Origin: a virus
Lineage: Duplodnaviria > Caudoviricetes
Strand: one strand, 5' to 3'
Virus record (IMG/VR): IMGVR_UViG_3300034682_000127
Span: 1 to 34,576 of that record
DNA: 34,576 nt
Shown here: positions 236 to 34,576 of the stretch, piece after piece
Layout: the number at the start of each line of letters is the position of its first letter
Numbering within the stretch: the first letter of the stretch is position 1
The notes under the pieces: model-generated
The model's database searches: none
What the model saw: the letters and a program-made list of their open reading frames with translations, nothing else
Told to the model about the DNA's origin: nothing
Made by a program: the position numbers and the translations under genes

Positions 236-275
236 ATAAGTTAAAAATTACCGCCAAAATCAAGAGGATAGTGCA

Positions 276-13794: not shown

Positions 13795-13877
13795 GCCATA
13801 ACCAGCCAGGCACTGATTGGGTGCCTGGTTATTCATCCACATGATTTTAGTAAACCGAAGAACAGCAGGAAAAAGCC

Positions 13878-15507: not shown

Positions 15508-15969
15508 ATGAGCGGTTTCGGGTATCAATCACCAGCACAACAAAGCATCGTCATAGATGCCAATAGCGGCTGGCCGGAACTGTCAACGGCTGATTTTCGC
15601 AAGTTACGCCGTATACCTGAAATTTTTGAAGAGGCAGCACTTGCCGACTCACTCAACAAAAGCGTGGCTGAAATTCAGCAGCAACTGATCGGTTTTGCAC
15701 TACAGGCAAGCAATGACACGGACGTCCCTTTTACCCTGGGCGAAGGCTTAGCACCTAATTTTAGTGTGCAGCAAATTAGCATTTACCGGGGCGCTGTGTA
15801 TGCACGTTCCCACGCCGATTTGCTGGGTTATTTTTCTGCTGTCGACCAAAAAGAGGCAGGAAACAACAAGGCACAAGATGCCACGCAGCAGGACGCAATA
15901 CTTGCCCAGTCCAACCGTTCAGTGCGTTTACTGCTGGGCCTTGGCCGTGTCGGGGTGCATTCGCTATGA
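15508..15969 (+). CDS. Head completion/stabilisation protein (gpL-like)
   Basis: GWPELSTADFRKLRRIP, YRGAVYARSHADLL; synteny. Confidence 0.88.
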   Translation: MSGFGYQSPAQQSIVIDANSGWPELSTADFRKLRRIPEIFEEAALADSLNKSVAEIQQQLIGFALQASNDTDVPFTLGEGLAPNFSVQQISIYRGAVYARSHADLLGYFSAVDQKEAGNNKAQDATQQDAILAQSNRSVRLLLGLGRVGVHSL

Positions 15970-16454
15970 GTCAAACCGTCTCACAATTACAGCAAGTTAC
16001 CGACTTTCTACTGGCCAGCCTGCAGCCTTACGTTACCGCAAACACCATAGACGCTTGGCAGGAGGGCGGCAGCCTGATCTTAAGTGGCGAAGACCTTGGC
16101 ACCGACGGTTACCAGGTTGCGAAGTGGAAACACCGCGCCACCATCGCCTTTGAAAAATTCCCACACCACCGGGTCAATCCTTACAACCTGCTGGCCATGC
16201 TGGCGGCGTTTTTAATCGATAGCGAATGGCCGCGTGATGAATACAACTTAAGTGATCCAGAGCTAGACATAGACGTCGTAAGCCGCGACAACGCCACTGT
16301 GCTGGTAGAGCTGGAACTGATGGACGATATCGACCTGATCCCGGACGCAGCAGGGCCAGTTTTGTTTAACGGCCAACGCTACCGCGTGGCATTAGTGCCT
16401 GTGAACGTAGCCGAAGACGTCGACGTGCAAACACAGCCAGGCGGTGCGTCATGA
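15966..16454 (+). CDS. Tail completion protein (gpR-like)
   Basis: Synteny with HP1/K139-type phages, size, IAFEKFP motif. Confidence 0.7.
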   Translation: MSQTVSQLQQVTDFLLASLQPYVTANTIDAWQEGGSLILSGEDLGTDGYQVAKWKHRATIAFEKFPHHRVNPYNLLAMLAAFLIDSEWPRDEYNLSDPELDIDVVSRDNATVLVELELMDDIDLIPDAAGPVLFNGQRYRVALVPVNVAEDVDVQTQPGGAS

Positions 16455-17110
16455 GCCTGATCATCAAGCCAAACAAGCAACAGGCTTTAAATGTCAGCAT
16501 GCAATTAGCGCTGCTAAGAATGCCAGCCAACAAGCGCACCAGAGTTTTAAAAACACTGGGCCGTTACGAAAAAGCCTTAGCCCGTAAACGCATTAACACT
16601 CAGACAACAGTGGAAGGCGGCCCGTTTAAAGCCAGAGCAAACGGCAAAAAAGGCCGCATGCTGAAGAAATTAGCAAAGACATTGGAGCCATTTGTAAAAG
16701 CCGGTCATTTGCTGGAACTAAAGCACAAGCAAGCATCGGTGGGTCGTGTTGCCGCACTACATCAGGACGGTGGCCGAGAAAAAATGACAGCCACCCGCAT
16801 GGCACGGATCCACAGCAAAACAAACTACGACGCCCCATGCAGCAGAGGCGCAGCCAAAGCCTTAGTGGCCGAAGGCTACAAAGTGAGAAAAGCCAAAAGC
16901 AAGCGCTACCGCAAGGCCACCATCAATGAAGTGATGGAGTCCATGAACCAAGGGCAGGCCTCGCTGATCTTGCGCATTATGCGCGACAAACCAAACAAGA
17001 AAAGCTGGGATATCCCAGTAGATGGCCGTCCGTTCCTTGGCGACACCACGCCAAACGTACAGCGCCAGTTAGTCAGCATCATTGAAAAAATTAACCAGAA
17101 AAGGGGCTAA
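16451..17110 (+). CDS. Virion morphogenesis protein (gpS-like)
   Basis: Basic protein; VAALHQDG and C-terminal RPFLG. Confidence 0.8.
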   Translation: MSLIIKPNKQQALNVSMQLALLRMPANKRTRVLKTLGRYEKALARKRINTQTTVEGGPFKARANGKKGRMLKKLAKTLEPFVKAGHLLELKHKQASVGRVAALHQDGGREKMTATRMARIHSKTNYDAPCSRGAAKALVAEGYKVRKAKSKRYRKATINEVMESMNQGQASLILRIMRDKPNKKSWDIPVDGRPFLGDTTPNVQRQLVSIIEKINQKRG

Positions 17111-17112
17111 AA

Positions 17113-18219
17113 ATGTCACTAGGTAAAGTACAGGTAAATAATCTCAATCAAGGCCAGGGTGACATTCAAGCCATTGAGCGCCACTTTTTATTTATCGGCC
17201 GCGCAGGCGATGCCGACGAAGAAAGCCAACTGTTTAGCGTAGGCGCACAGACGGATCTGGTAGAGAATTTTGCCGCCAGCAACCTGCGAACCCAGCTTAT
17301 TGCCGCACAGTTAAACGCTGGTCAAAACTGGACAGCAGCAGTCTACCCACTGGCAGCAGATGAAGACATTTACGACGCAATCACCGCAGCAAACGAAGTG
17401 CAAAGCTTTGAAATTGTGGTGTTCTGCGACATCAGCACAGAAGCTGTGGCCATTACAGCCAAACATGACTATTTGCAAAGCTTGCAAGCCTCACTGGGTC
17501 GCTTCGTATCGGGCATCGTTGCTATAGCTGGCATTAACCCAGCAAACCAAACATGGAGCCAGTACGAAACTGCACTGGCTGCACTGCAAAACGGCATTGC
17601 CGCTCATTTGCTGCTACCAGTACCACAACTGCATGGCAACAACGTCGGCGTGTTGGCTGGCCGTCTGTGTAACCGTGCTGTCAGTATTGCCGACAGTCCA
17701 ATGCGTGTGGCCACAGGTGCAGTGCTTGGCTTAGGCGCTGCACCTGCAGACAGTGCAGAAAAACCACTGACACTGGCCACACTGGAAACGCTGGCGAATA
17801 ACCGTTACAGCGTGCCGCAGTGGTATCCGGATTTAGAAGGCGTGTACTGGAGCGACGGCACCACATTAGACGCAAACGGCGGCGACTACCAATACATAGA
17901 ACACCTGCGCCCGGTGCATAAAGCCAGCCGCGAAGTACGCATTTTGGCGATCCGCCGCATTGCCAACCGTTCGCTGAACTCTACACCAGCCAGCATCGAA
18001 CTGAATAAAGCCTACTTTATGAAGCCACTGCGCAACATGAGCAAAAGCACCGTGATTTTAGGCACCCAGTTCCCAGGCGATATTCAGCCGCCGTTAGAAG
18101 GTGATGTAACCATTGTCTGGACCAGCAACAAGGCAGTGACCATTTATCTGATCATCCGGCCGTACAACTCGCCGAAAGAAATCACAGTAAACATCCTGCT
18201 TGATTTAAGCAGCAACTAA
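17113..18219 (+). CDS. Tail sheath protein (HP1-type, DUF2586-like)
   Basis: VQVNNLNQGQG, IERHFLFIG, SIADSPMRVATG, VPQWYPD, GGDYQYIE. Confidence 0.9.
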   Translation: MSLGKVQVNNLNQGQGDIQAIERHFLFIGRAGDADEESQLFSVGAQTDLVENFAASNLRTQLIAAQLNAGQNWTAAVYPLAADEDIYDAITAANEVQSFEIVVFCDISTEAVAITAKHDYLQSLQASLGRFVSGIVAIAGINPANQTWSQYETALAALQNGIAAHLLLPVPQLHGNNVGVLAGRLCNRAVSIADSPMRVATGAVLGLGAAPADSAEKPLTLATLETLANNRYSVPQWYPDLEGVYWSDGTTLDANGGDYQYIEHLRPVHKASREVRILAIRRIANRSLNSTPASIELNKAYFMKPLRNMSKSTVILGTQFPGDIQPPLEGDVTIVWTSNKAVTIYLIIRPYNSPKEITVNILLDLSSN

Positions 18220-18232
18220 CGGAGCCGGCACC

Positions 18233-18682
18233 ATGCGTATTTCTGGAATGAATTTCACCGTAACTATGGGTGACATTAAGGTAACAGTTGACACAGCAAC
18301 TCTGGCAATAACGGACAACAGCGGAGTAAGCCAAAGCGGAGGCGTGCCAGATGGTTGGGTCGATGGAGACGTTGCGGCCAGCGGTGAGATGAACGTCAAC
18401 GCGAGCAATTTTACTCTGATCTCCGATGCAGCAAAGTCGGCAGGTGCATGGCGCGCTATGGAGACGTTCGACATCATGTTTTATGCGAAAACAGCCAAAG
18501 ACGAAATAAAAGTGGAAGCTTTCGGCTGCCGCATCAAGCTATCGGACATTTTGGACATCGACAAAAAAGGCGGCCAAGCCAGCCTTTTCAAAATCCCGTT
18601 TGACGTCACCAGCCCCGACTTTGTGCATATCAACGGTGTGCCATACCTGCGGCCGGAAGAAATCGAAGACATTAAACAGTAA
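18233..18682 (+). CDS. Tail tube protein (DUF2597-like)
   Basis: MRISGMNF, GVPDGWVDGDV, VEAFGC, VTSPDFVHINGVPYL. Confidence 0.88.
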   Translation: MRISGMNFTVTMGDIKVTVDTATLAITDNSGVSQSGGVPDGWVDGDVAASGEMNVNASNFTLISDAAKSAGAWRAMETFDIMFYAKTAKDEIKVEAFGCRIKLSDILDIDKKGGQASLFKIPFDVTSPDFVHINGVPYLRPEEIEDIKQ

Positions 18683-18756
18683 AGCTGCAGCACAGTCAGT
18701 TTTGACTGTGCCAGCTGTGGCAAACGTGAAACACCAGGCGAATAAGGCAACGGCAA

Positions 18757-19305
18757 ATGACAAAAGTGAACTTTGGCTTAATTTCGGAATTAGAAGGTGG
18801 CGCAGCCTTAAAAGGCTACGTGCCGGATCCGAAAAACTCCAACTCTGGGGTAACCATTGCCACTGGTTTTGATATTGGCCAACGTTCGCTGAATGAGCTT
18901 TACAGCATGTTTTCGCCTGAGCTTGCCAAAAAGTTAGCGCCTTACTACGGCCTGAAAAAGCAAAAAGCGGTGGCAGAGCTGCAAAAAACACCACTGCGGA
19001 TCACTGCCGAGCAAGCCGCAGAAATTGACCAAGCGGTAAAAAGCCAGCTGCTGGTTCAGCTGGAACAGCGCTACAACAACGCAGCACAAACGCGTTTTGC
19101 TGATCTGCCGGAGTGCATGCAAACAATCATTGCATCAGTGGCATTTCAGTACGGTGACTTGGCAAAGCGCTGCCCTAAATTCTGGCAAGCGGCCACAAAT
19201 GCAGACAACCAGGCAATGGCCGGTGAGCTGCGCAACTTTGGCGATATCTACCCAACACGGCGCAACAAAGAAGCCGACTACCTAATAAAAAGCGAGGCCG
19301 TATGA
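18757..19305 (+). CDS. Endolysin, pesticin C-terminal-like muramidase
   Basis: ELEGG...GYVP...SGVTIATGFDIGQ, SVAFQYG, YPTRRNKEADYL. Confidence 0.88.
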   Translation: MTKVNFGLISELEGGAALKGYVPDPKNSNSGVTIATGFDIGQRSLNELYSMFSPELAKKLAPYYGLKKQKAVAELQKTPLRITAEQAAEIDQAVKSQLLVQLEQRYNNAAQTRFADLPECMQTIIASVAFQYGDLAKRCPKFWQAATNADNQAMAGELRNFGDIYPTRRNKEADYLIKSEAV

Positions 19306-19853
19306 ACTGGAAAGACATTGCAAGCACAGTCGGCGGCATAGCTGGCGCAGTAGCCCCGCTGTTAACCGGCCCCGTAGGTTTAGCGGTCAGCATTGGCAGC
19401 CAAATCGCTGGCGCACTGGGCACCGAAAACAAACCTGAAGCCGTGGCCGCAGCATTGCGCAACGACCCCAACGCAGCCTTAAAGCTGCAGGAGTGGGCCC
19501 ACGAAGAACGCGAACAAATCCGCAACAACCATGTGCAGCTGCAACAGATAGAGCTGGAACGGGAAAAAGCGTTATTAACAGACCGGCAGAACGCACGCCA
19601 CGAGCACAAAGACCACTGGATGCCAGCGGTGCTAACACTGATTTTGGTCGCAATGTTTGCCGCGCAATTGGCCGTCCTATTTTTTGTGGATATCCCAACT
19701 GGCAACCGCGACTTACTGGTTTACCTGTCGGGTAACTTCCTGCCGTTTATTGCGGCAGCGGTGGGCTACTGGGTCAGTTCAACCAAAGACGCCAACGACC
19801 GCGAAAAAATATTAAGTGGCAACGGAACACAGGAGAAAAAGCCATGGAATTAA
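19302..19853 (+). CDS. Putative holin-like membrane protein
   Basis: Gly/Ala-rich N-terminus, coiled coil, DRQNAR, two C-terminal TM segments ending GYWVSS. Follows the lysin. Confidence 0.6.
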   Translation: MNWKDIASTVGGIAGAVAPLLTGPVGLAVSIGSQIAGALGTENKPEAVAAALRNDPNAALKLQEWAHEEREQIRNNHVQLQQIELEREKALLTDRQNARHEHKDHWMPAVLTLILVAMFAAQLAVLFFVDIPTGNRDLLVYLSGNFLPFIAAAVGYWVSSTKDANDREKILSGNGTQEKKPWN

Positions 19854-20110
19854 GTAACGGGTTATCAGTGGCTATTGGTTTCATCGGAATTGCACTAACC
19901 GTGTTAGTGCCTTTAGTTGCCAGCATTTACAACAGCCAAAAAGCCACTGACAAAGAACTGGCCAGGCACCAAACCCACGTTGCAGAGCAGTACGCCACTA
20001 AGCACGACGTGCGCGAACTGGGCGACAGAATGGAACGCCAGATGAAAGACGGATTTGAAAACATTAAACAGCTTTTAACCAACACCAGAAAAGAAAGGGA
20101 TCACGCATGA
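19844..20110 (+). CDS. Small protein with one N-terminal TM and a coiled coil (lysis-region gene)
   Basis: AGGAG RBS; HVAEQYATKHD motif. Confidence 0.7.
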   Translation: MELSNGLSVAIGFIGIALTVLVPLVASIYNSQKATDKELARHQTHVAEQYATKHDVRELGDRMERQMKDGFENIKQLLTNTRKERDHA

Positions 20111-20373
20111 AACAGCAAATCATTTTAACCATAGGCGCCGTTGACTTTGCCTTCAACGTTACAGCGCAGGACCACAACGACTTTGTGGACGCAGCGGCAC
20201 GCGGCGGCTCTATGACAGCAGCGGCGAATAACTTTGTTGTGCGGGTGATAAACCCAGACCAAAAAGAAGAGTTTAAAAAGCTACTGCAGAGCTCACCAGG
20301 CGCTGAACTGCAAATTGCATCGGTCCTGAAAGTTGAGTTTTCGCCAGTACTGGAAATCGCCGTAAAAAAATAG
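20107..20373 (+). CDS. Tail assembly chaperone (short form)
   Basis: Lies before the tape measure gene and ends GTA AAA AAA TAG. Confidence 0.85.
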   Translation: MKQQIILTIGAVDFAFNVTAQDHNDFVDAAARGGSMTAAANNFVVRVINPDQKEEFKKLLQSSPGAELQIASVLKVEFSPVLEIAVKK

Positions 20374-20561
20374 AAGGGCTGATCGAGTCCATCGACACGA
20401 ATCAGCTTGAGCAGTTGTTTATCTTGCGGCGGCACCTGCTGCCACATGAAGACGACACAGAACAAAGTTTAGCAAGGGCGGCGTGGCTGATGAAACGCCG
20501 CAATGAAGACTTAGAAGCCATAGTCACCAATGCAGTATGTAAAGCGTTTGGTGGCAGGTAG
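20370..20561 (+). CDS. -1 frameshift extension of the tail assembly chaperone
   Basis: A_AAA_AAA at 20364-20370 opens IEGLIESIDTNQLEQLFILRRHLLPHEDD...LARAAWL...VCKAFGGR*. Confidence 0.8.
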   Translation: MEGLIESIDTNQLEQLFILRRHLLPHEDDTEQSLARAAWLMKRRNEDLEAIVTNAVCKAFGGR

Positions 20562-20582
20562 CAGCAAACAACCGGGGCACAA

Positions 20583-22313
20583 ATGAGCTTACCAGCACCG
20601 CTAATGTTCACCGTTGGCCTGATAGACCAGATAACTGCGCCGATCGCAAAAATACGCGGCCAGTTAAATGGTTTATCAGCCAACTACCAGCAAGGAACCA
20701 TGCAAATGGCTACCGGCGTGGGTGGCATTGTGGCCAGTGGTTACGCCTTGCAAAACGCCCTGATGCCAGCCATTGAAATGAGCCGCGCCTTAGGTGAGGT
20801 GAAATCGCTGGGGGTGCAGGAAGGTGCACTTAAAATGCTGTCGCAAAGCTCTTACGAATACGCGCTGCAGTATGGCGAGTCGGCCACAGAGTTTGTGCGC
20901 TCAAGCTATGACATTCAATCTGCAATTGCCGGGTTAAACGCCACGGATTTATCCCGTTTTACCATGGCGTCGAACGTGCTGGCCAAAGGCACAAAATCAG
21001 ACGCTGCAACCATCACCAGTTACATGGGCACCATGTACGGCATCTTTAAAAATGATGCCATGCAAATGGGTGAGGGTGCGTGGGTAGAGCGCTTAACAGG
21101 CATGACAGCAACCGCAGTTCAGGCCTTTAAAACCGACGGTAAAAAAATGTCGGATGCATGGAGTCAATTAGGTGCTTCTGCTGGTCTGGCTCCATTGCAA
21201 GAGCAAATGGCGGTATTGGGCACTTTGCAAGCGACTATGGAAGGTGGGACATCCGCCACAAAGTATCAAGCATTTTTAGGCGGTATAGGTAAGGCACAAA
21301 AAGCACTTGGAATGAGCTTTGTTGATAGCCAAGGCCAGATGTTACCAATGGTAGAAATACTTGAAAAAATACAAGGAAAGTACGGAAAGCTGGACAGTGT
21401 ACAGGCGGATATTGACAAGTTTGATACAGCGTTCGGATCAAAAGACGCCAGGCAACTAATCCAATTACTGCTTAAAGATGTCGATGGGCTGAAAGGTTCA
21501 ATCAACACGCTTGGACAGGTAAAAGGCATGGAGCAGGCAACAAAAATGGCCGAAGCCATGATAGACCCAAGCCAACAGTTAAGCCAAAGCTGGTACGTGA
21601 TCAGGGCGGCAATAGGTTCAGCGATTCTGCCGGCCTTTAACAGTTTTGTTGGAGGCATTGCCAGCATGGGAAAAGAGGTGATCTGGTTTACTGGCATGTT
21701 CCCAAACATTACCAGATGGCTTGGATATATCGCGGTTGCATTTCTATCTGTTGTTGCTGTGGGCGCATTGTTTAGCATCATGTTAGGTGCTGGGAAAATG
21801 GCAATGGCAGGATGGAGGGTTGTAGGTGCGTTGTTTGCATTCGACCTTGTAAAAATACGTGCCGCAATGCTGGCTTTAAATATTTCAATGTATGCAAACC
21901 CCATAGCTTGGCTAGTGGCTGGCATAGCCGCCGCAGTTATTGCCGTGGGCGCGCTGATCTACTACTGGGACGATTTAAAAGCCACTATGGGCGAATGGGG
22001 CTGGGTAAAAGCCATTGGCGGCATATTCAGCAGCTTGTGGAATGGCCTTCAAACCATGTTTAACGACACCATCAATTGGATTATCGAAAAGCTCAATCTG
22101 ATCCCATTTGTAGACATTAGCACCACAGCAGCCACTGGCAGCGTCAGCAGCATAAACGCCATTGAGCCAGTAAAAGCCACCACACCACGCGGCGGCATCA
22201 GCCAGCAAATAGCGAACGCCAATACCAGCAAATCAACCAGCGTTGGCGCGATAAACATCTACCCGCAAAAAGTGGACACAAACTTTGCAAACTACGTGGA
22301 GATGCACTCATGA
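20583..22313 (+). CDS. Tail tape measure protein
   Basis: LMFTVGLIDQITAP, ALGEVKSLGV, FVRSSYDIQSAI, ANPIAW. Confidence 0.92.
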   Translation: MSLPAPLMFTVGLIDQITAPIAKIRGQLNGLSANYQQGTMQMATGVGGIVASGYALQNALMPAIEMSRALGEVKSLGVQEGALKMLSQSSYEYALQYGESATEFVRSSYDIQSAIAGLNATDLSRFTMASNVLAKGTKSDAATITSYMGTMYGIFKNDAMQMGEGAWVERLTGMTATAVQAFKTDGKKMSDAWSQLGASAGLAPLQEQMAVLGTLQATMEGGTSATKYQAFLGGIGKAQKALGMSFVDSQGQMLPMVEILEKIQGKYGKLDSVQADIDKFDTAFGSKDARQLIQLLLKDVDGLKGSINTLGQVKGMEQATKMAEAMIDPSQQLSQSWYVIRAAIGSAILPAFNSFVGGIASMGKEVIWFTGMFPNITRWLGYIAVAFLSVVAVGALFSIMLGAGKMAMAGWRVVGALFAFDLVKIRAAMLALNISMYANPIAWLVAGIAAAVIAVGALIYYWDDLKATMGEWGWVKAIGGIFSSLWNGLQTMFNDTINWIIEKLNLIPFVDISTTAATGSVSSINAIEPVKATTPRGGISQQIANANTSKSTSVGAINIYPQKVDTNFANYVEMHS

Positions 22314-22642
22314 TCACCTACAGAGATTTGCACATCAGCAACGGCGATATAGTGCTTGATGCCGGGTTAAACCCGACCTATTTAACTGACCGCGCAGCCA
22401 TAGCACAGGACATAGTTCACGCCATTTTAGAAACCGGCATTGCCCATTTGCTGGTAAGTGACAGACGCACAGGCGTAACCGCAGACACCAAAATAAAACT
22501 GAAACTGCTGGTAGAAGACGACGTGCGGATCATGCCAGGCACAGTACGCATTGAAGAAGTAAGCAGCGGCCAATGGTGGGTATTTGCAGACACCATCGAC
22601 TTTGGCCCTATTTCATCCAGCATCACAGGCGGAGCACTCTAA
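22310..22642 (+). CDS. Baseplate protein (DUF2590-like)
   Basis: IAQDIVHAILETG, LLVEDDVRIMPGT; synteny. Confidence 0.8.
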   Translation: MITYRDLHISNGDIVLDAGLNPTYLTDRAAIAQDIVHAILETGIAHLLVSDRRTGVTADTKIKLKLLVEDDVRIMPGTVRIEEVSSGQWWVFADTIDFGPISSSITGGAL

Positions 22643-23842
22643 ATGGCAGATAAAATCACCGCGCCAACCATCGACTTTGCCGCCATCGTAGAAGCTGCAG
22701 GCATACCAACCACAGAGGCAGGCTGGAAAGCCCTGTTTAAGCAAGACGTAGTGGCAGAGGGTAGCATTATTGCCAATGATTCGGCCTATTCACCGTTCTG
22801 GCGATTAATTAGCGCCATAGTGGCAAAGCCAGCCACATGGATAGTAAACAACGTACTGATTGCGGTGATCCTGCCCAATTTATTTTTACTTACCGCCACA
22901 GACGACAGCTTTATCGAAGCCAAAGCGTGGGAACACGACTTAACGCGAAAAGAACAAACCAAAGCACAAGGTAAAGTCAGATTTAACCGCGCTGCAGCAA
23001 GTGGCCCAGGGCTTCTGATACCGGCCAATACCGTGATACAAACCGACGCAATCAACGGCACAGTGTACAGAGTGGTAAGCGTTGCCGACGTGATCTTGCC
23101 GCAAAACAGCCTAAGCGTACTGGTGCCGGTAATAGCCGAAAACGCAGGGGCAGCCTACAACTTAGGCGCTGGCTATTTTCATATTTTACCGGTTGCAGTC
23201 ACCGGCATTGGCAGCGTGGCAAACGAGGCCGACTGGCTCGACGTACTGGGCGCAGACAGCGAAAGCAACGACGATTTAAAGCAACGCACACGCAACGCTT
23301 TTACAGCAGCTGCACCGTGGCACATTGACGCTGTGTACCGTTCTATCATCACAAGACGCGCAGGCCTGAACACCGACAACGTGTATTTTGAACACGACGC
23401 ACCACGCGGCCCAGGCACAGCTAACGCCTATATTTTGCTGGACACTGGCGAACCATCATCAGAACTGCTGGCAGACCTGCAAAACTACATCATGGAACAA
23501 GGCTACCACGGCCACGGCGACGATATGCTGATCATGGCAATGCCAGCCGTAAACGTGGCGATAGGCGTCACCATTTACCCGCACACCTACTTACTGGAAG
23601 CTGAAGTAACCACCTTACTAAGTGACGTCGAAAACTTTATCCGCTGTGCATTCCGCGAAAACACCAACTACAGCGCCACCAAAACAGAACCGTTTGGCCG
23701 CTTTAGCTTTAGCCGCTTAGGCCAAGAGCTACACGACCAATTTGCAGGCATTGAATCATTGAACTGGCATCAAATGGATATCACCAGCGCAAACAGTGTG
23801 CCGCGCCTGACGACCCTGACCATTCAAAACGGTAACGCGTAA
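22643..23842 (+). CDS. Baseplate J-like protein
   Basis: SPFWRL, GADSESNDDLKQR, HDAPRGPGTANA, HGHGDD. Confidence 0.9.
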   Translation: MADKITAPTIDFAAIVEAAGIPTTEAGWKALFKQDVVAEGSIIANDSAYSPFWRLISAIVAKPATWIVNNVLIAVILPNLFLLTATDDSFIEAKAWEHDLTRKEQTKAQGKVRFNRAAASGPGLLIPANTVIQTDAINGTVYRVVSVADVILPQNSLSVLVPVIAENAGAAYNLGAGYFHILPVAVTGIGSVANEADWLDVLGADSESNDDLKQRTRNAFTAAAPWHIDAVYRSIITRRAGLNTDNVYFEHDAPRGPGTANAYILLDTGEPSSELLADLQNYIMEQGYHGHGDDMLIMAMPAVNVAIGVTIYPHTYLLEAEVTTLLSDVENFIRCAFRENTNYSATKTEPFGRFSFSRLGQELHDQFAGIESLNWHQMDITSANSVPRLTTLTIQNGNA

Positions 23843-24468
23843 TGGCTATTGAATGGAACGTCATCACCAAAATGCCTTACTGGCTGGCGCGTCCGGCCAG
23901 CGAGTTGGACAAGCTACGCAAAGGCGCGGTGCGGTTTTGGCAGCGCTTGGCAGACATGCTGCAATTCGTGAACAACCAGCTGGACCCTATGACAGCAGAA
24001 CTGGCCTTTGTCCACCTGTTGGCATGGGAGCGCGACATAGAGCAAATACCCACAGAAACAGAACTGATCTACCGCACCCGGGTTAAATACGCCTTACCGT
24101 TCGCCAAAGGCGCAGGTAGCACAGCCGGTTGGCTGGATATGTTTAAAAAGCTGGGTATGCCCTATGTAGCCATAGGCGAACGCTTCAGCGCCACCGACTG
24201 GGACGTCATAGACCTGCTGTTGTTGGACGTAGACGTCAGCACAAGACAAGCCTTGCTGGGTTCAATTTGCCGTCAGTACGGCCGAACAACACGGCGCTAC
24301 AGGTACAGCACAGTCGCAAAAATGCCAGTGCAAACGGCATTAGCAGCATTTGACAACCACAGCAGCTTTAACGTGGCAAAAGCCAACACCAACCTTTTGC
24401 CAGCAAAAAGATTTATGACAATGGACAGCGGATCAAGCTACCAGGTCGCAAAAACTCAGCAGAATTAG
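23842..24468 (+). CDS. Baseplate/tail protein (gpI-like)
   Basis: LDPMTA, LLAWERDI, YRTRVKYA, QYGRTTRRY. Confidence 0.85.
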   Translation: MAIEWNVITKMPYWLARPASELDKLRKGAVRFWQRLADMLQFVNNQLDPMTAELAFVHLLAWERDIEQIPTETELIYRTRVKYALPFAKGAGSTAGWLDMFKKLGMPYVAIGERFSATDWDVIDLLLLDVDVSTRQALLGSICRQYGRTTRRYRYSTVAKMPVQTALAAFDNHSSFNVAKANTNLLPAKRFMTMDSGSSYQVAKTQQN

Positions 24469-24480
24469 AAGAGGTAAACC

Positions 24481-27456
24481 ATGGCACAAGTGATCACAAC
24501 AGCAGGCGAACAGTTATTTGCCATTAAAGCGCAAAACAACCAGCCGTTAGATATCGACACCTTTATTTTTGCTTATGTGCCTGGTCAGGATTCGTCAGCA
24601 GCTATTGACCGCAACGAGGGCTTGCCGCCAGTAGGCCAGCGCGTACATCAGCAAATAGTGCAGCAACGCGGCCGGGTCAACTCCAACGTGGTGATTTACT
24701 CCACAGTGATGGACAGCATAACGGGCCCGTTTGAATTTAACTGGGTAGGGCTGTATTCCTCGGTCAACAACACGTTAGTAGCGATCAGCAAAATACCAAC
24801 GGTTGTAAAAACAGTCACAGTGCCAGGCACTGCAGGCAACATTTTAAACCGCAACTTTGGTATAGAGTACAGCGGTATTGCCGACTTAGACGGCATCACC
24901 GTGGATCCAGAAACATGGCAACTGGACTACACAGCGCGCCTGAACGGCATGGACGAACTAACCCGCCAACTGGCCGCAGACATGAACGGCCGCGACTGGT
25001 TTATCGACAACGGCTTTAAAGTAGCGCCACTGCCAACACCAAACAATTTCAAAGTAACAGCAGGCGCTGGCTATGTGTCCGGCCTGCGCATAGCCATTGA
25101 AGAAGAACCAACGCTTATTGCAGCCAGCTACCCGCAGTTCGTCTATGTAAACGCCTGGTTCGACGGCACATCAGAGGCAACTTGGAAGGGGCAAACCACA
25201 TTCCAGATCACACCCGCAGAACAGGAAGACTACACCGACGAAACCGGCAAACGCCATTACCTGTTTAAGCTGGCCACCATCACCGCGGCGGATACAGTGA
25301 TAGACCACAGAAGCGGCAATGCAACCAGCCCACACCCAGGCATTAAATACCTGTTAAAAGTGCCAGGCATTAAACAAACAACACTGAGTTTACATACCGG
25401 TTTAGGTGTAGGCGGCGCAGAATATGTGTGGCTGCCAGATGCTGATCAATCACAGCACCTAAAGCGTGGTCCAAATGGCGGTATTTTATTTTCTTCAGAA
25501 GCAATTAATTTATATGATGGAACGCCAGCAACACTAAACGCTTTATTGTCCGGCGGTTTCACTGGGATGGGTTGCTTTGAACAGATAACCACAAGTATTT
25601 CTGAAGTAAACTTCGGCGCGGTGCCTAACAATGACAACCTACTAGCTATCAGAGCTGCAATTGAGTACTGCAATACCTACAAAAAACCATTTAATGTCGA
25701 AATTGATAACTATACAACTGATGTGATCAGGCTGCCATCAGACATCGAAATTATTTTCGATGGAGGCAGAATAGATAACATAGGAACAATTAGCAGCCTA
25801 AGAAAGGCTGTATTTATGGCCGGGCATTGGCACCCTGAAATGTACGGATCCAGAGCGATAGGTGCGATAACTCCTTATGTCAGGCAGGTAGACAGATACC
25901 GCTGCACAGGAGTTGTAACCAGTAATCAAACGTCAATAACGCTTGTAAATGCTTCAGATGCTTCAAATTTTATAGCTGAAGAGCTCTATTTCATTGCCAC
26001 AGATGAAAGCTACCCGCAAACAGGGACAGGTGTTGATATTGACCTACCATCTCAATCGAGTGTCATTAAATGTAAAACATCTGACTCAAGTACAGGTGTT
26101 GTCACCTTTTACGATAGTATTGATTTTAATAGTGTAAGTGCCCCTTGGTTATGTAAATTGAGAGCTGGGGAAGAAAACCAGTCATTTCAAATATATTTAG
26201 CAAAAAACATCACTATAAAAAATGCGAATGGGTCAGGCCGTTCACTATTAGGGCTAACAAGCTGTTGTTATAACCTAGACGTTGATAAATGGAGTGGGCA
26301 CTACTCCTACATTATTCAGCTCAATGGATTAATCAAATCTAAGATGAAAGGTTTCTTAGGTACGTTTGATTTGTCTGCTATAGAGATCAAGTTTTGCACC
26401 AATAACGCTGATGTAGCTGATATTAAGGGAACATGCCTGACAGATGGAACGGGAACGCCAGTAGGTTTAATCAGTTACGGGGAAGGTGCAAAAAATCTAG
26501 ATATTCATGATTTCAAGATTGTTGCCCCAAAATTCGCCCCTGCATCGAATCCTATTATTCAGCAGCAACCTGGCATTAACTGCAAAATATACGACGGATT
26601 GATATATACACCATTATGCGATAGACAACCGATCCAGTTTTATTCTGACTCTAGAAGTAGTTTGGAGAACTGCCACGTCGCCAACTTAGAGATATATAGT
26701 GCCTCAAGACTTGGTATTCGCATGGGAGGAAACTATGGTGCGTACACACCTAAAAATTGTACTGCCAAAAACATTAAGTTATATACCTCTTATGCGGGTG
26801 TTGATTCAATGTATCTAATTAGATTTGAGCACAGTAATGACTGTGAAATTTCTGCTTGTTCCTCTCCAAATCTAAAAATAATAGACATTCTTAACGGTTC
26901 AGTTAACCCAATTTGCTTCGAAAATGTTACTGGGCCATCTGGTTCACTGTCTGGCACTAACTCAGGATTGTTAGGTATTAGAGATAACAAATCACTTGAG
27001 TTAACAGGCCCTATTGCCTTAGGTACAGATAAAAAACCAAGAACTTCATTTGGCACGAATGCTGCCCCAGCTTGCTCAGTAGAAGGAGTGGGGGCTGGAA
27101 GATTCATGGGACAAGATGTGCCGACCTCTGGCACTGGAACTGAAGTAGGTTACGACCAAACTACAGGTGTGGGATATGCACAAGCCCGAAACCGATCAAC
27201 TTCAGAATACATGCCTTATCGGATTTTCGGCAGCATTGTCGATATTTTTGTAGGTGCGTTTCAGTCGGTCAGGTTCAGCATCTGGGGTACACCAACTCGG
27301 TTTGACATTATAAATTCAGATGCAGATCCAGAAGGTATTGTGTCAGCTCCGATTGGAAGTGTTTGCTCAGTAAAATTTGGTGGCACTGCATCACTATGGT
27401 TTAAATCTGGCGGCGGTTCTGGAAACACCGGCTGGCATCAGGTGCCACTGTTATAA
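24481..27456 (+). CDS. Tail fibre/tailspike: P2/HP1-type N-terminal anchor plus AT-rich putative beta-helix receptor-binding domain
   Basis: N-terminal GPFEFNWVGL and TWQLDYTARL. NFGAVP..DNLLAIRAAI marks a pectate-lyase-like helix start, followed by Asn/Ile/Cys-rich repeats. Confidence 0.88.
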   Translation: MAQVITTAGEQLFAIKAQNNQPLDIDTFIFAYVPGQDSSAAIDRNEGLPPVGQRVHQQIVQQRGRVNSNVVIYSTVMDSITGPFEFNWVGLYSSVNNTLVAISKIPTVVKTVTVPGTAGNILNRNFGIEYSGIADLDGITVDPETWQLDYTARLNGMDELTRQLAADMNGRDWFIDNGFKVAPLPTPNNFKVTAGAGYVSGLRIAIEEEPTLIAASYPQFVYVNAWFDGTSEATWKGQTTFQITPAEQEDYTDETGKRHYLFKLATITAADTVIDHRSGNATSPHPGIKYLLKVPGIKQTTLSLHTGLGVGGAEYVWLPDADQSQHLKRGPNGGILFSSEAINLYDGTPATLNALLSGGFTGMGCFEQITTSISEVNFGAVPNNDNLLAIRAAIEYCNTYKKPFNVEIDNYTTDVIRLPSDIEIIFDGGRIDNIGTISSLRKAVFMAGHWHPEMYGSRAIGAITPYVRQVDRYRCTGVVTSNQTSITLVNASDASNFIAEELYFIATDESYPQTGTGVDIDLPSQSSVIKCKTSDSSTGVVTFYDSIDFNSVSAPWLCKLRAGEENQSFQIYLAKNITIKNANGSGRSLLGLTSCCYNLDVDKWSGHYSYIIQLNGLIKSKMKGFLGTFDLSAIEIKFCTNNADVADIKGTCLTDGTGTPVGLISYGEGAKNLDIHDFKIVAPKFAPASNPIIQQQPGINCKIYDGLIYTPLCDRQPIQFYSDSRSSLENCHVANLEIYSASRLGIRMGGNYGAYTPKNCTAKNIKLYTSYAGVDSMYLIRFEHSNDCEISACSSPNLKIIDILNGSVNPICFENVTGPSGSLSGTNSGLLGIRDNKSLELTGPIALGTDKKPRTSFGTNAAPACSVEGVGAGRFMGQDVPTSGTGTEVGYDQTTGVGYAQARNRSTSEYMPYRIFGSIVDIFVGAFQSVRFSIWGTPTRFDIINSDADPEGIVSAPIGSVCSVKFGGTASLWFKSGGGSGNTGWHQVPLL

Positions 27457-27504
27457 AAAATATTTGGACAAGGAATTAACCTTAAAATAATAGAGGTGTA
27501 GAAC

Positions 27505-27753
27505 ATGGCTTTGCAAAATAACATTGAATATAAGGGCATAGTTGTCGAGGGCAGCTATATCAGGATTAATCGCTTTGAAGGGAATAAAGGCACGATTAAC
27601 TTTATCGTAACTTACCATAAAGATAGCCAGTCACAGCCATTCAACTTTAAAGAGTTTGAATGCAGCAACAACTTAAATTCGGGGAATATTATAGAACAAG
27701 GGTATATGCATCTAAAAACGTTGCCTGAGTTTGCTGATGCTGTTGACTGTTAG
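27505..27753 (+). CDS. Small tail-fibre-associated protein
   Basis: GAGG RBS. C-terminal QGYMHLKTLPEFADAVDC is a pattern I recall from genes following tailspikes. Confidence 0.7.
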   Translation: MALQNNIEYKGIVVEGSYIRINRFEGNKGTINFIVTYHKDSQSQPFNFKEFECSNNLNSGNIIEQGYMHLKTLPEFADAVDC

Positions 27754-27765
27754 CGAAGTAAAAGC

Positions 27766-28230
27766 ATGCTAAATAAAACAAAAGTAGCGTTAGTATCCGC
27801 CCTAATCATCCTATCCGCCTGCAGCCCTCCAACGCTGCAGCAGGAGCACAGCTGGGCGCTGAAAAAGCACCAGTACATCACTGATCAAGAACAGTACGGC
27901 ATACCCAACAAATGGGTGGCAAGCCTGAAGGGCGACTGTGAAGACTACGCCTTAGTGATGAAAAACAAAGTAGGTGGCACCATGCTTTACGTGCGTGCCT
28001 ACACCGGCGAGGCGCATATTGTGCTACTTGTTGATGGCGTATTTGACAAAAACAACAAGCCCATTTCTGGGCAGGTGTTAGATAACATGTCAAAAGTGGT
28101 TTACCCTCTGGGCGAAATGCGGCACAAATACGTTTACACCATCAAAGAAACCGATATAGAACACTGGTTAGCCAAAGCCCAGGCACACGACGAAGCCATA
28201 GCAAATCAGGTGGCCTATGCTAACCCTTAA
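27766..28230 (+). CDS. Lipoprotein with transglutaminase-like cysteine peptidase (BTLCP/LapG-like) motifs
   Basis: Signal peptide with lipobox LSA-C. GDCEDYA, HIVLLV and VLDN give a Cys-His-Asp triad. Confidence 0.78.
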   Translation: MLNKTKVALVSALIILSACSPPTLQQEHSWALKKHQYITDQEQYGIPNKWVASLKGDCEDYALVMKNKVGGTMLYVRAYTGEAHIVLLVDGVFDKNNKPISGQVLDNMSKVVYPLGEMRHKYVYTIKETDIEHWLAKAQAHDEAIANQVAYANP

Positions 28231-28756
28231 CGCAACCCAAATACTGCTAAAAGCCATTCGGATCACGGCCAGCCAAGAGCTGGCAACCGAAGACGCCAGC
28301 GGCCAGAGCAGCAGCACCGACACAGCCGAAACAGGCATGAAAGCCAAAATGTTATCCGTAACGGGCTTCATCCCGTTTGCTGATCAACAGCAACTAACCG
28401 ACCTGTTCACGCTGGCCGAAGCCACCGAAGCCGGGGCGCGGGTAACGTACCGCATCAGCAACCGAACCGCGTCGGCGCTGGGTGTAAAAGAAGTAAAATT
28501 CAGCAGCAGCATTGAAGCTGTGGAACAAGAAACAACCCGCCAATGGAGCATTAGTTTCACACTGGCGGAAGTGCGAAGCGTACCGCAGAAAAAAGAAGAA
28601 CGGACACCACAAGCCGCAGCAGCACAGCAGGGCGCAACGGGCCAAACGGCGGCCGAAGACAACGCGCCACCAGAAACCGAAATACCATTAACCGGCTTTA
28701 CTGCCTTTTTAAAGTCAGTCGATAACAGTCTGGCAGCAGACACAGGCAACGCATAA
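28217..28756 (+). CDS. Conserved HP1/K139-type tail/baseplate protein
   Basis: DASGQSSSTDTAETGMKAKMLSVTG, WSISFTLAE; synteny. Confidence 0.75.
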   Translation: MLTLNATQILLKAIRITASQELATEDASGQSSSTDTAETGMKAKMLSVTGFIPFADQQQLTDLFTLAEATEAGARVTYRISNRTASALGVKEVKFSSSIEAVEQETTRQWSISFTLAEVRSVPQKKEERTPQAAAAQQGATGQTAAEDNAPPETEIPLTGFTAFLKSVDNSLAADTGNA

Positions 28757-29446
28757 ATGGCAGAGCCCAACGCCAAATTTATCACCCGAGCCTACATTGG
28801 CAGCCAAAAAGTGGCTGTCAGTGATCATTGGGTAGTACTGCAAGCCAAAAGCCCAGGCACCTGCCAAATTACCATCAACCAAAGCGCAGAACGCCTTACA
28901 CCTGTAGCCTTTGAAATGGGTTGGGGCGAAATGATAGACCGCGTGTTTTTTGGTTACATCGAACGGATCATGCCAGCAGCCAACGGCCACTACACCGTAT
29001 TTTGCCGCGAACTATCATCAGCGCTGGCCAACAACATCAGCGTAATGCTACGCCACCCAACACTGCGCCAGGTATGCGCCGAAATCACAGCACAAACAGG
29101 CCTTGAATTCGTATTGCCAGAAAAGGCATACACCAACACCGCCATACCAAGCTTTTACGCCGACACCTCAGGCTACGCCATGCTGGACAACTTAGGCCGC
29201 TGCTTCAAAATTCCAGATTTCATCTGGCAACAGCAAGGCAACGGCAAAATCTACTTAGGCAGCTATGCCGATTCATACTGGAACGGCAAAAACATAGCGA
29301 TACCGCAAAACCTGATGACCGAGCAGCAAAACGGAAAAACCGCCACCATACCAGCCACGCCAAAACTACGCCCAAATGCCACCGCCAACGGCCAGCGCAT
29401 TACCAAGGCCGAGTTCAAAGGCACCAACCTGACAATCACCTGGTAA
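28757..29446 (+). CDS. Baseplate hub-like protein
   Basis: FFGYIER, FCRELS, LRHPTL, FIWQQQGNGKIYLGS. Confidence 0.72.
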   Translation: MAEPNAKFITRAYIGSQKVAVSDHWVVLQAKSPGTCQITINQSAERLTPVAFEMGWGEMIDRVFFGYIERIMPAANGHYTVFCRELSSALANNISVMLRHPTLRQVCAEITAQTGLEFVLPEKAYTNTAIPSFYADTSGYAMLDNLGRCFKIPDFIWQQQGNGKIYLGSYADSYWNGKNIAIPQNLMTEQQNGKTATIPATPKLRPNATANGQRITKAEFKGTNLTITW

Positions 29447-29450
29447 AGCT

Positions 29451-30188
29451 ATGGAAGCAATCATCAAAAAATTAGTGTTACGCCTCTGGCCAGAATTAAG
29501 CGCCGGGTTACACCTGCCGCGCTGGGGCCAGGTAGTTGCACTGCCAGAACTGCCAGCCGAAGACGGCGAACGCGGCAGCGACCCGTTTTACCCACGTTAT
29601 GCAGTAGACGTACAACTGCTGGACGAAAACGGCACCGCAACTAAATCCAAAGTACTGCAAGCCGTGCCACTTCCACTCATGGGCGCAGGCGACAAAGCAG
29701 GGCGCATGCAACCACCGGCCATCGGCAGCATTGTCGAAATAGCCTTTGCCTACGGACGCCCGGATAAACCATTTATTCGCACAGTATTACCATTCGGCTG
29801 GAACCTGCCGCCCATCAAAGAAGGTGAGTACCGCACCCAAACCAAAGAAGGCGTATACCAGCACATAGACGAAGCGGGAAACTTTGAAAACAAAACGCCA
29901 GAAAACCTAAAAGACATCATAGGCAAACTGGCCGAACTGCAATGCCAAACACGAAAAGTGATTGCCACCACAGAGCAAGACCACCGCAGCCCAAAAACAT
30001 GGCTGGGCAGCGAAGGGGAAAACGTGCTTAAGTTGCTGTCTGAACTCATGGCAACAGTAAAAGCATTAGCCACCGAATGCGCAGGCCACACCCACGCAGG
30101 GCCAGCCCCTGATCAAGCCGCAGCATTTACCGCCAAAGCCAACGAAGCCCAAGCCCAGAAAAGCAGGCTAGACCCAATCACCAAATAG
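29451..30188 (+). CDS. Baseplate spike-like protein (gpV-like)
   Basis: PELSAGLHLP, YAVDVQLLDE, VEIAFAYGRPDKPFIR, C-terminal HTH (His-x-His) metal motif. Confidence 0.75.
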   Translation: MEAIIKKLVLRLWPELSAGLHLPRWGQVVALPELPAEDGERGSDPFYPRYAVDVQLLDENGTATKSKVLQAVPLPLMGAGDKAGRMQPPAIGSIVEIAFAYGRPDKPFIRTVLPFGWNLPPIKEGEYRTQTKEGVYQHIDEAGNFENKTPENLKDIIGKLAELQCQTRKVIATTEQDHRSPKTWLGSEGENVLKLLSELMATVKALATECAGHTHAGPAPDQAAAFTAKANEAQAQKSRLDPITK

Positions 30189-32692: not shown

Positions 32693-32980
32693 ATGAGCGC
32701 CATGTTAGACATGAAACAGGACCGGATTAATTTAAGGTTAAAGCCAAGCGCTAAACGCGATTTAGAACGTGCAGCCAGCTTTGAAGGTAAAACAGTCAGC
32801 AGTTTTATTCTCAGCAGCGCATTAGCGCATGCAGAAAAAACCATACACGAACACGAAACCATGCGCCTGAACAAACAGGACTCAGAAGTGTTCTTCGCAG
32901 CGCTTTCAAAACCAGTGAAGTTTAACAGCGCACTGACAGCAGCATTTGCAGAGCATGAAAAACGTGTGACCACTAAATGA
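32693..32980 (+). CDS. DUF1778/RHH antitoxin (TacA/AtaR-like)
   Basis: DRINLRL...LERAA...TVSSFILSSAL...FFAALSKP. Confidence 0.92.
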   Translation: MSAMLDMKQDRINLRLKPSAKRDLERAASFEGKTVSSFILSSALAHAEKTIHEHETMRLNKQDSEVFFAALSKPVKFNSALTAAFAEHEKRVTTK

Positions 32981-33477
32981 CTGAACAGCAAAACCTAATC
33001 ATAAGGCCACTGGACGGCCAGCATAAAAGAGCAGCGTTTACCTGCGGAACACCATCACTGGACCAGTACATTCAAAAGCAGGCAGGTCAAGACATAAAGC
33101 GCCGTGTAAGCCGCGTATTTATTGCAAGTACACAACAGCTTCCTAATGAAATAGTGGGGTACTACACACTATCCAGCATGTCGATAGAGCTAAGCCACTT
33201 ACCGCCTGAAATTACCAAAAAGCTACCACGCTACCCAGTGCCAGCCGCACTTATTGGCAGGCTGGCAGTCAGCCAGAGCGCACAGGGCCAGGGCGTTGGT
33301 AAAATGCTATTGGTTGACGCCATCAAAAGAACAATGGCTGTTAGCCAGGACATCGCCATTTACAGCATGGTAGTAGATGCTATCGACCAAAACGCCCAGG
33401 CATTCTATGAAAGGTTTGGCTTCACCCAGCTAACGACCAATAAAAATCGTTTATTCCTGCCATTACAAACCATCTGA
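32977..33477 (+). CDS. GNAT acetyltransferase toxin (TacT/AtaT-like)
   Basis: FTCGTPSLDQY, GYYTL, PVPAALIGRLAV, QGQGVG, VVDA, FYERFGF. ATGA-coupled to the antitoxin. Confidence 0.93.
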   Translation: MTEQQNLIIRPLDGQHKRAAFTCGTPSLDQYIQKQAGQDIKRRVSRVFIASTQQLPNEIVGYYTLSSMSIELSHLPPEITKKLPRYPVPAALIGRLAVSQSAQGQGVGKMLLVDAIKRTMAVSQDIAIYSMVVDAIDQNAQAFYERFGFTQLTTNKNRLFLPLQTI

Positions 33478-33517: not shown

Positions 33518-33901
33518 CTAAGTAGAGCGCTCAATCACCAGCTTTGGCACCTTATCCCAGTTAACGGCTTGCATCAGAAACGGCCAAAACTGAATAGTAC
33601 CCAGGCGAACCAAACGACCATCAGCCAGCAAAACACCATCATCACATACCTTAAGACCAGCCTTACGCCAACTGTATGGAAGCGAATCACCAGCGTAAAT
33701 CATTTCAAGTTGATGCCTGGCTTTAGGCGGAAATCCAGCCTTCAGCCATCGGCGAACAGTGCGGGGGGAAACTAAAAAGAACGAACAAATCTTCTCAATG
33801 TTAGGTATGGATTTAACATCAGTTGAGGTGATCTGAGTGTGTGAGAATCCAGTGAGCCACAATAATTGTTGATCTTTAATAGACCGAGTTTGCATTAACA
33901 T
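33518..33901 (-). CDS. HTH + DUF3653-like protein, candidate XafT-like Xer activation factor
   Basis: HTH IEKICSFFLVSPRTVRRWLKAG.P followed by LPYSWRKAGLKVCDDGVLLADGRLV, similar to the W-x-G..G-x-L-x-x-P-x-G pattern of DUF3653. Starts 140 bp from the dif-like site. Confidence 0.62.
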   Translation of the reverse strand: MLMQTRSIKDQQLLWLTGFSHTQITSTDVKSIPNIEKICSFFLVSPRTVRRWLKAGFPPKARHQLEMIYAGDSLPYSWRKAGLKVCDDGVLLADGRLVRLGTIQFWPFLMQAVNWDKVPKLVIERST

Positions 33902-34040
33902 AGACGTTTCAATTCCATTTAGTTATCTAAATCATGTTTTTCCCAGTTTTAGATAACTGCAAAAAACAGGCCTGTGTTTGGATTTTTTGAACGAACAGGC
34001 TAAAAAACGTTTTTGCTATTAATTATTGATGACTTACTTC

Positions 34041-34068
34041 ATTTAACATAATAATCATTATGTGATAC
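34041..34068 (-). repeat. Right dif-like site (attR), both arms well formed
   Basis: Minus strand GTATCACATAA-TGATTA-TTATGTTAAAT, compared with E. coli dif GGTGCGCATAA-TGTATA-TTATGTTAAAT. Confidence 0.88.
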
Positions 34069-34197: not shown

Positions 34198-34563
34198 TTA
34201 ATTGCGGGAAATCAGTTTAATACCGCCATCGTAACATTCGGTTGTTTTGTCTGAATCCGATATCACCTGGATATGATCAAAACCGCCGGCTGGCGCTGAC
34301 TTCTCCAACAAGTCGGTAAAGTCATCGGCTATGTCGCTGATTTCATCACCTTTTTGTTCTAAAGCTGCAAAATGTGGTTTGTAACGACTTGTGATTTCCT
34401 GAATTTCTTCGGCTAATTTGTGTTGTTCTGCCATTTTAACTTTATCTATCCGAATACTGTATTCATCTTCCTGATGCATAAGATCTGAAAGCTCAGCCAT
34501 ACGTTCGCCGTGCTGCTCCATTTCTGCTTCAAAAGCTTTTAAAGGTAAATGCAACTCTTCCAT
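34198..34563 (-). CDS. Hypothetical acidic coiled-coil protein outside the prophage (may be 5'-partial)
   Basis: 121-codon ORF at the window edge; no recognised motif. Confidence 0.5.
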   Translation of the reverse strand: MEELHLPLKAFEAEMEQHGERMAELSDLMHQEDEYSIRIDKVKMAEQHKLAEEIQEITSRYKPHFAALEQKGDEISDIADDFTDLLEKSAPAGGFDHIQVISDSDKTTECYDGGIKLISRN

Positions 34564-34576
34564 TTGTTGCTCAACA

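What the first reader, a model, noticed from the sequence alone, without database searches (positions are those of the whole stretch)
33518..33901. XafT-like (HTH-DUF3653) gene sits where the integrase should be
Seen: a 127-aa HTH protein with a W..AG....DGVLLADG tail lies next to attR, in the same orientation as the repressor. That is the position int occupies relative to cI in HP1/K139. Known: XafT of the TLC satellite is a DUF3653 protein that activates XerD catalysis independently of FtsK. Inference: this protein is the phage's integration/excision factor, letting a dsDNA attP recombine without the ssDNA hairpin route used by CTX.
Basis: partly seen in the sequence, partly recalled or inferred. 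Interest (0 to 1): 0.82.

Follow-up and report, generated by a model that had tools for sequence, protein, structure and literature searches.

The report
Tailed prophage borrowing host Xer recombinases
This 34-kb tailed prophage has no detectable integrase and sits in its host's chromosome-separation site (dif), and the small gene beside that site is a distant relative of known Xer-activating proteins that likely switches on the host's own recombinases to move the phage in and out, a strategy described so far for filamentous and tailless phages.

Summary
The 127-aa ORF is real, lies 140 bp inside attR and runs the same way as the repressor. The window is a HP1/K139-like (P2-family) Rheinheimera prophage with no integrase found, bounded by a 17-bp repeat (XerD arm + overlap) at 208 and 34041; attR is the host's chromosomal dif. 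Five more such tailed prophages occur in relatives. The ORF misses the Pfam DUF3653 and NCBIfam VC1465 cut-offs, but profile-profile comparison (P 95.9%, E 6e-9), ESM-Atlas neighbours and dif-adjacent distant relatives make it a divergent HTH-DUF3653 (XafT/XafV/P15) protein. A close relative of this phage fills the same slot with a more typical VC1465-like gene. One correction: attP lies between repressor and ORF, as in the inovirus/PM2-like 'repressor-attP-xaf' module, not as K139 int. Xer activation is inferred, not shown; the XerD complex could not be run. The isolated myovirus phiE12-2, published as integrase-less with a 'different mechanism of integration', has an attP matching its host's chromosome II dif, but its neighbouring gene matches only in the HTH. 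Verdict: a tailed-phage variant of IMEX, not found in my paper searches.

The parts
208..235 (-). attL: host XerD arm (208-218), overlap hexamer (219-224), degenerate phage XerC arm (225-235)
230..257 (-). 10-bp stem-loop overlapping the phage XerC arm, after the repressor stop; role unclear
   Evidence: z -3.8 here; 4 of 10 relatives/self at z about -2 or lower, p=0.09 against host sites
276..587 (-). 103-aa HTH repressor, RstR/P16-like
   Evidence: phrog_4441/638; tblastn hits are repressors of Vibrio inoviruses, NO16-like DJR phages and Burkholderia phiE12-2-like phages
5391..7355 (+). P2-type replication protein A
   Evidence: PF05840 E 2.5e-84
8800..30188 (.). HP1/K139-like head, lysis and contractile-tail genes
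   Evidence: Pfam and PHROG hits
32693..33477 (+). TacA antitoxin + GNAT toxin pair in the variable cargo slot
   Evidence: PF08681, PF13508; other cargo in relatives
33518..33901 (-). 127-aa HTH + divergent DUF3653-like protein, inferred Xer activation factor
33917..33954 (-). 11-bp perfect inverted repeat just upstream of the start codon (operator or RNA hairpin)
   Evidence: z -2.8, -2.75, -2.6 in three phages
34041..34068 (-). attR: XerD arm (34041-34051), overlap (34052-34057), host XerC arm (34058-34068) = intact chromosomal dif
34198..34576 (-). host flank gene (lipoprotein-like), next to dif in relatives

Best explanation
The window is a P2-family tailed prophage with no detectable integrase, lying between two dif-type sites at the Rheinheimera chromosomal dif, and the 127-aa protein beside attR is a divergent relative of XafT/XafV/P15 that likely activates the host XerCD recombinases so that the circular double-stranded phage can integrate and excise. 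Shown: att anatomy, host dif identity, absence of integrase hits, conserved gene slot, remote homology. Inferred: (1) attP = degenerate XerC arm + host-matched overlap + perfect XerD arm, recombined with dif by a full two-step crossover; (2) integration leaves one intact dif (attR) and one crippled site (attL), which would limit FtsK-driven loss at cell division; (3) the Xaf-like protein would license this poor site for recombination, in both directions; (4) because attP lies between repressor and xaf, integration changes what lies upstream of xaf, and the HTH may also autoregulate through the upstream inverted repeat. Whether XerD or XerC cuts first is open (about even).
For: Att sites. Host dif: pattern ATAA-N6-XerD arm in 34 of 43 genus genomes, once in 29, with the window's overlap TGATTA in 12; KOPS polarity flips across the site in G036 (22 of 22 sites + up to 756,910, next 37 of 37 - from 897,837; site at 868,830). 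No recombinase among 49 window ORFs nor in six-frame scans with a small tyrosine-recombinase profile. Same architecture in G001, G012, G042, G444 (33-35 kb, complete) and G002 (two contigs); each has the same overlap at both ends and it varies with the host (TGATTA, TGTATA, TTATTA), as a homology-dependent full crossover needs. All 5 strong family hits among 43 genomes lie 120-200 bp inside dif; 13 of 20 weak hits have an exact XerD arm within ~1.5 kb and 16 of 18 order-wide weak loci hit a DUF3653-set profile. Homology: hhalign P 95.9, E 5.7e-9, score 55 vs at most 21 in 60 shuffles; DUF3653-set HMM finds this ORF as the only window hit, E 2e-6; ESM-Atlas top hits are DUF3653 clusters for the whole protein (0.90) and for residues 58-127 (0.84). 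G444, 80-95% identical in most structural proteins, has a more typical VC1465-like gene in the same slot (NF040522 E 1e-5). XafT and XafV are proven activators and lie beside attP (PMC6744903; bioRxiv 10.64898/2026.06.12.731946).
Against: No DUF3653 or VC1465 hit for the ORF itself; 1 of 32 family members hits PF12375 (E 0.0012) and 4 of 32 hit NF040522 (best E 0.0015), all below cut-off. Without the HTH the profile match is weak (P 26-44%, score 21 vs at most 18 in shuffles) and a C-terminal-only HMM misses the window ORF. Direct matches to XafT (E 0.0014) and XafV (E 0.07) are weak; nearest described kin are DJR P15 proteins, called transcriptional regulators and untested for Xer activation (PMC12715192). 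The DUF3653 set came from a search whose query alignment included this ORF, so it may be biased towards it. phiE12-2 has the same att layout but its gp25 matches in the HTH only. No attP junction seen in four runs' contigs.
Confidence: 0.65

Rival explanations
1. The phage does use XerCD at dif, but the 127-aa protein is only a transcription regulator (P15-like); recombination is driven by FtsK at cell division or by basal XerC plus replication.
For: Clear part of the match is the HTH; inverted repeat upstream of the gene could be an operator; P15 is described as a transcriptional regulator (PMC12715192; PM2 P15 as a repressor is recalled, not read); phiE12-2 lacks a detectable DUF3653 gene.
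Against: The W-x-G..G-x-L..G stretch is conserved and aligns with DUF3653; VGJ ORF136 was annotated as a regulator yet raised integration 10,000-fold; the slot is refilled by a distant Xaf-like gene in G444.
Confidence: 0.25
2. Integration uses a CTX-like folded single-stranded attP made during rolling-circle replication, and the gene is incidental.
For: P2-type RepA makes single strands (established knowledge); a stem-loop overlaps the phage XerC arm.
Against: No inverted copy of the XerD arm within 400 nt of att on either side (best matches have 3 mismatches); the stem covers only the XerC arm and is not general (p=0.09); both ends share one overlap, unlike the inovirus ends in G036, G443, G444; a hairpin route gives no simple excision for a 34-kb lytic cycle.
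Confidence: 0.05
3. The prophage lost its integrase after insertion and is a stranded remnant; the gene came from a neighbouring inovirus or DJR element.
For: IMEX arrays occur at this site (G036, G444); no excision junction seen.
Against: Six tailed elements with different cargo, tail types and overlaps keep the same ends and intact modules; phiE12-2 with the same layout forms plaques (PMC2920897).
Confidence: 0.05

Closest known systems
TLC satellite XafT (VC1465) / IMEX D-pathway (PMC6744903, PMC9226527)
   Same: HTH + DUF3653-type layout, gene beside a double-stranded attP with one degenerate arm, no integrase.
   Different: TLC has a degenerate XerD arm; here the XerC arm is degenerate and the XerD arm perfect. 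Host element is a 34-kb tailed phage. Sequence match to XafT is weak (E 0.0014).
VGJ phage XafV (ORF136) (bioRxiv 10.64898/2026.06.12.731946)
   Same: Repressor-attP-xaf order; itself below the DUF3653 and VC1465 cut-offs (20.3 and 41.8 bits).
   Different: Filamentous phage, XerC-initiated, overlap unlike dif; no significant match to this family.
dif-type double-jelly-roll prophages, P16/RstR + P15/XafT + attP module (PMC12715192)
   Same: Same three-part module, 17-bp one-armed att core; closest sequence kin (fNo16 gp7, P 82.6); a Rheinheimera DJR prophage (G036) carries this very subfamily with the same repressor and RepA.
   Different: Described for tailless and filamentous phages of Vibrio only; here on a contractile-tailed P2-family genome.
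HP1/K139/186-type Peduoviridae
   Same: Replication, head and tail modules.
   Different: They carry int, cI, cox, cII with attP distal to int; all replaced here by the IMEX module.
Burkholderia phage phiE12-2 / GI15 / PI-E264-2 (PMC2920897)
   Same: P2-like, no integrase annotated, related repressor, attP between repressor and an HTH gene; attP has the overlap and XerD arm of the host chromosome II dif with a degenerate XerC arm.
   Different: gp25 matches only in the HTH; the passages read do not name dif or Xer.

Membership tests
IMEX (integrative mobile element exploiting Xer) | Flanked by dif-derived attL/attR at the chromosomal dif | tested here: met
IMEX (integrative mobile element exploiting Xer) | No recombinase gene of its own | tested here: met
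   49 ORFs; six frames, three-sequence tyrosine-recombinase profile; its K139 control was part of the profile
IMEX (integrative mobile element exploiting Xer) | Integration depends on host XerC and XerD | not testable with these tools
   Host relative encodes XerD and XerC-like genes; dependence needs mutants
DUF3653 (PF12375) | Score above Pfam gathering cut-off (22.4 bits) | tested here: not met
   proven XafV also falls short
VC1465 family Xer activation factor (NF040522) | Score above 70 bits | tested here: not met
   XafV scores 41.8
Xaf-like proteins (XafT/XafV/P15) | N-terminal HTH followed by DUF3653-type region, by remote homology | tested here: met
Xaf-like proteins (XafT/XafV/P15) | C-terminal region alone homologous to DUF3653 | tested here: inconclusive
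   above all 60 shuffles but P 26-44%; Atlas 0.84
Xaf-like proteins (XafT/XafV/P15) | Gene immediately beside attP | tested here: met
Xaf-like proteins (XafT/XafV/P15) | Binds XerD (or XerC) and activates recombination without FtsK | not tested
   complex prediction could not be queued; activity needs experiments
Peduoviridae-like (HP1/K139 type) | P2 RepA, Ogr, portal, terminase, capsid, contractile tail | tested here: met
Peduoviridae-like (HP1/K139 type) | int-cI-cox/apl lysogeny switch | tested here: not met

The most novel reading that the evidence does not exclude
Tailed P2-family phages form an unrecognised third virion lineage of IMEXs: they swapped int/cI/cox for the repressor-attP-xaf module shared with filamentous and PM2-like phages, and use a new Xaf subfamily to drive reversible XerCD crossover on a site with a crippled XerC arm (the mirror image of TLC). 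The same route explains the integrase-less myovirus phiE12-2, left open since 2010.
Probability: 0.6. Interest if true: 0.8.

Novelty: new variant of a known kind. Interest (0 to 1): 0.72.

Why it matters
Xer-hijacking phages have been treated as small, tail-less elements, explained as genome economy (PMC12715192). A lytic-competent 34-kb myovirus that does it must also excise efficiently, so it offers a harmless environmental system to study how Xer recombination is switched on and given direction without FtsK, and a third Xaf type to compare with XafT and XafV. It shows one lysogeny module moving between three viral realms, gives a rule for delimiting integrase-less prophages that tools call defective, and offers an answer to the published puzzle of phiE12-2 integration.

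Tried and rejected
Pfam, PHROG, NCBIfam on the ORF: HTH only. tblastn against cultured phages: no match. Single-sequence search of cluster representatives gave 28 hits, of which 19 were long proteins matching one short stretch and were dropped, and one 57-aa fragment (P0016) was not aligned. Foldseek of the model (pLDDT 78.6, pTM 0.56) against viral and PDB libraries: nothing at E<=0.001; no information either way. Complex prediction with XerD: the queue was full, no job ran, no verdict. Viral-contig scans with subfamily alignments found only L001 or nothing. Sigma-70 promoter scans at chance level. Read laying on 33300-34576 in 4 runs: no joint; contigs cannot show absence; no RNA holder on record. 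pTLC record NC_004982 gave no intact XafT frame; TLC-Kn1 was used instead. The tree puts the family in its own supported clade; deep placement unsure (long XafT branch). Hairpin over the phage XerC arm not general. Earlier-findings look-ups returned nothing.

Full report
Observation. It behaves as a gene: orthologues in two Rheinheimera loci are 88% and 75% identical with mainly third-position changes. Its start is 140 bp from an exact XerD arm at 34041; the only other exact arm is at 208, and the two extend to a 17-bp direct repeat, arm plus overlap hexamer. Between them lie 33.8 kb of HP1/K139-like phage: repressor, methylases, P2 RepA, Ogr, portal, terminase, capsid, contractile tail and a TacA/GNAT pair; none of 49 ORFs hits a recombinase in Pfam or PHROGs, nor does a small tyrosine-recombinase profile in six frames (its positive control, K139 Int, was in the profile).

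The site is the host dif. Relatives place the host in Rheinheimera. The pattern ATAA-N6-TTATGTTAAA occurs in 34 of 43 genomes of the genus, once in 29; the overlap is TGTATA in 18, the window's TGATTA in 12, TTATTA in 2, other in 2. In G036 the KOPS motif GGGCAGGG is on + in 22 of 22 sites up to 756,910 and on - in the next 37 from 897,837; the site is at 868,830 (first 100 of 130 matches listed, and the second switch at ~1.9 Mb makes the replichores uneven, so the assembly may be rearranged). attR is thus an intact dif, and attL has the same XerD arm and overlap but a degenerate XerC arm.

It is a family of prophages. A 32-sequence profile hit 7 of 43 genus genomes. The five strong hits all lie 120-200 bp inside dif. 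G001, G012 and G042 are 34-35-kb P2-like prophages bounded by two dif-like sites; G002 has both ends on two contigs; G036 is a 13-kb element with the same repressor and RepA but a double-jelly-roll capsid. The two weak hits lie next to Zot-like genes of inoviruses. An IMG/VR provirus, G444, is a close relative of the window phage at the same host gene, 33.1 kb between dif sites, with a different, more typical VC1465-like gene in the same slot (NF040522 E 1.1e-5, below cut-off). In all six tailed elements and the DJR element both ends share one overlap, and it follows the host variant, whereas the inovirus ends beside them differ. That is what a full, homology-dependent crossover on double-stranded DNA predicts (inference from Xer chemistry as described in PMC6744903). 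Serine recombinases were not searched for in the relatives. In a sample of 401 genomes of the order only G002 gave a strong hit; named members are Rheinheimera, Alishewanella and Arsukibacterium.

What the protein is. It does not reach PF12375 or NF040522; 1 of 32 and 4 of 32 family members hit them weakly. The proven activator XafV is also below both cut-offs. Profile-profile comparison of the family (31 rows, the bridging P0027 left out) with 72 DUF3653 proteins (71 Pfam-labelled hits, one partial left out, plus XafT) gave P 95.9, E 5.7e-9, score 55 against at most 21 in 60 column shuffles; without the HTH it fell to P 26-44, score 21 against at most 18. The set was gathered with a query that included this ORF, which may favour it. 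A full-length HMM of that set finds the ORF as the only window hit (E 2e-6); a C-terminal-only HMM does not. ESM-Atlas neighbours are DUF3653 clusters for the whole protein and for residues 58-127 (one source, scores 0.90 and 0.84). Independent of sequence labels, 13 of 20 weak profile hits have an exact XerD arm within about 1.5 kb, two more a one-mismatch arm, five none. Direct matches to XafT and XafV are weak; DJR P15 proteins are nearer. The model shows an HTH and a C-terminal hairpin; fold searches were blank. I put homology at about 0.85, Xer use by the phage at about 0.93, and activator function at 0.65.

In K139 attP is distal to int and int stays with cI. Here the circular order is repressor, attP, ORF, as for VGJ orf154/attP/orf136 and fNo16 gp6/gp7 with a XerC-arm-like motif between them. 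PMC12715192 (sections 7 and 10 and passages read; supplements listed, not read) describes this P16/RstR + P15/XafT + attP module for inoviruses and DJR phages, with 17-bp one-armed att cores. The window repressor's relatives are these repressors. So the phage carries that module in place of int/cI/cox.

Mechanism (inferred). The circular genome presents attP with a perfect XerD arm, host-matched overlap and poor XerC arm. XerCD recombine it with dif, leaving one working dif and one crippled site that would resist FtsK-driven excision. The Xaf-like protein would make the poor site reactive for entry and exit, as XafT does for TLC, whose bad arm is the XerD arm (PMC6744903: parts 1-3 of 5 read; PMC9226527: passages). 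An 11-bp inverted repeat just upstream of the gene, structured in three of three phages folded, may be an operator or hairpin. No inverted XerD arm for a CTX-type hairpin was found. The complex with XerD could not be run because the queue was full.

An active example and a counter-point. The repressor search led to Burkholderia phage phiE12-2, a plaque-forming P2-like myovirus with no integrase among 50 annotated genes. [quoted passage not shown] That attP has the overlap TTTACC and XerD arm of the host's chromosome II dif as listed in the supplement of PMC3025954 (rows for two strains seen), with a degenerate XerC arm: the same design. But gp25 matches Xaf profiles only in the HTH, so either it is too diverged or a Xaf is not always needed.

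Novelty. Nine full-text searches found no paper describing a tailed phage integrating at dif through XerCD; PMC11630473 (passages) says tailed Vibrio prophages used their own integrases; PMC3448106 and PMC3603311 (passages) do not mention it. The library lacks most subscription papers, and the PMC6744903 supplement listing 179 DUF3653 proteins was not seen and may include such prophages. IMEXs, Xaf proteins and large double-stranded IMEXs are known, so this is a new variant of a known kind: interest 0.72.

Noticed in passing
L004:5330-5470 (NC_009236, phiE12-2): Published attP of this integrase-less myovirus equals overlap + XerD arm of the host chromosome II dif; gp25 HTH gene follows.
   Followed up: partly
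G036:C1:868840-881974: 13-kb double-jelly-roll prophage with P2-type RepA, the window's repressor type and the same Xaf-like subfamily, followed by an inovirus: early module shared between tailed and tailless phages.
   Followed up: partly
G444:C1:804-43035; G443:C1:26616-35384: Tandem arrays of a P2-like prophage end and an inovirus-sized element at dif.
   Followed up: partly
window:34041-34068 and L018-L047: Rheinheimera dif is variable: overlap TGATTA/TGTATA/TTATTA and several XerC arms, possibly shaped by IMEX traffic.
   Followed up: no
window:1648-1697 and 2800-2849: 50-nt repeat (21 nt exact) among early genes, perhaps a recombination point for cassette exchange.
   Followed up: no
window:588-616 and 33980-34008: 29-nt imperfect inverted match upstream of both the repressor and the xaf-like gene; possible shared operator or chance.
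   Followed up: no
window:7484-8181: Second Dam-like methylase appears split in two ORFs; intact-length ORF in G001, G042, G444.
   Followed up: no
window:18757-19305; 31133-31993; 32693-33477: Pesticin-like lysozyme as endolysin; BRCT-domain cargo gene (K139 orf2 is also BRCT); TacA/GNAT toxin-antitoxin pair.
   Followed up: no
run X5 contig 17 on window:34052: A near-identical phage end continues after the XerD arm into a different overlap, as expected if another IMEX sits between it and the host dif.
   Followed up: no
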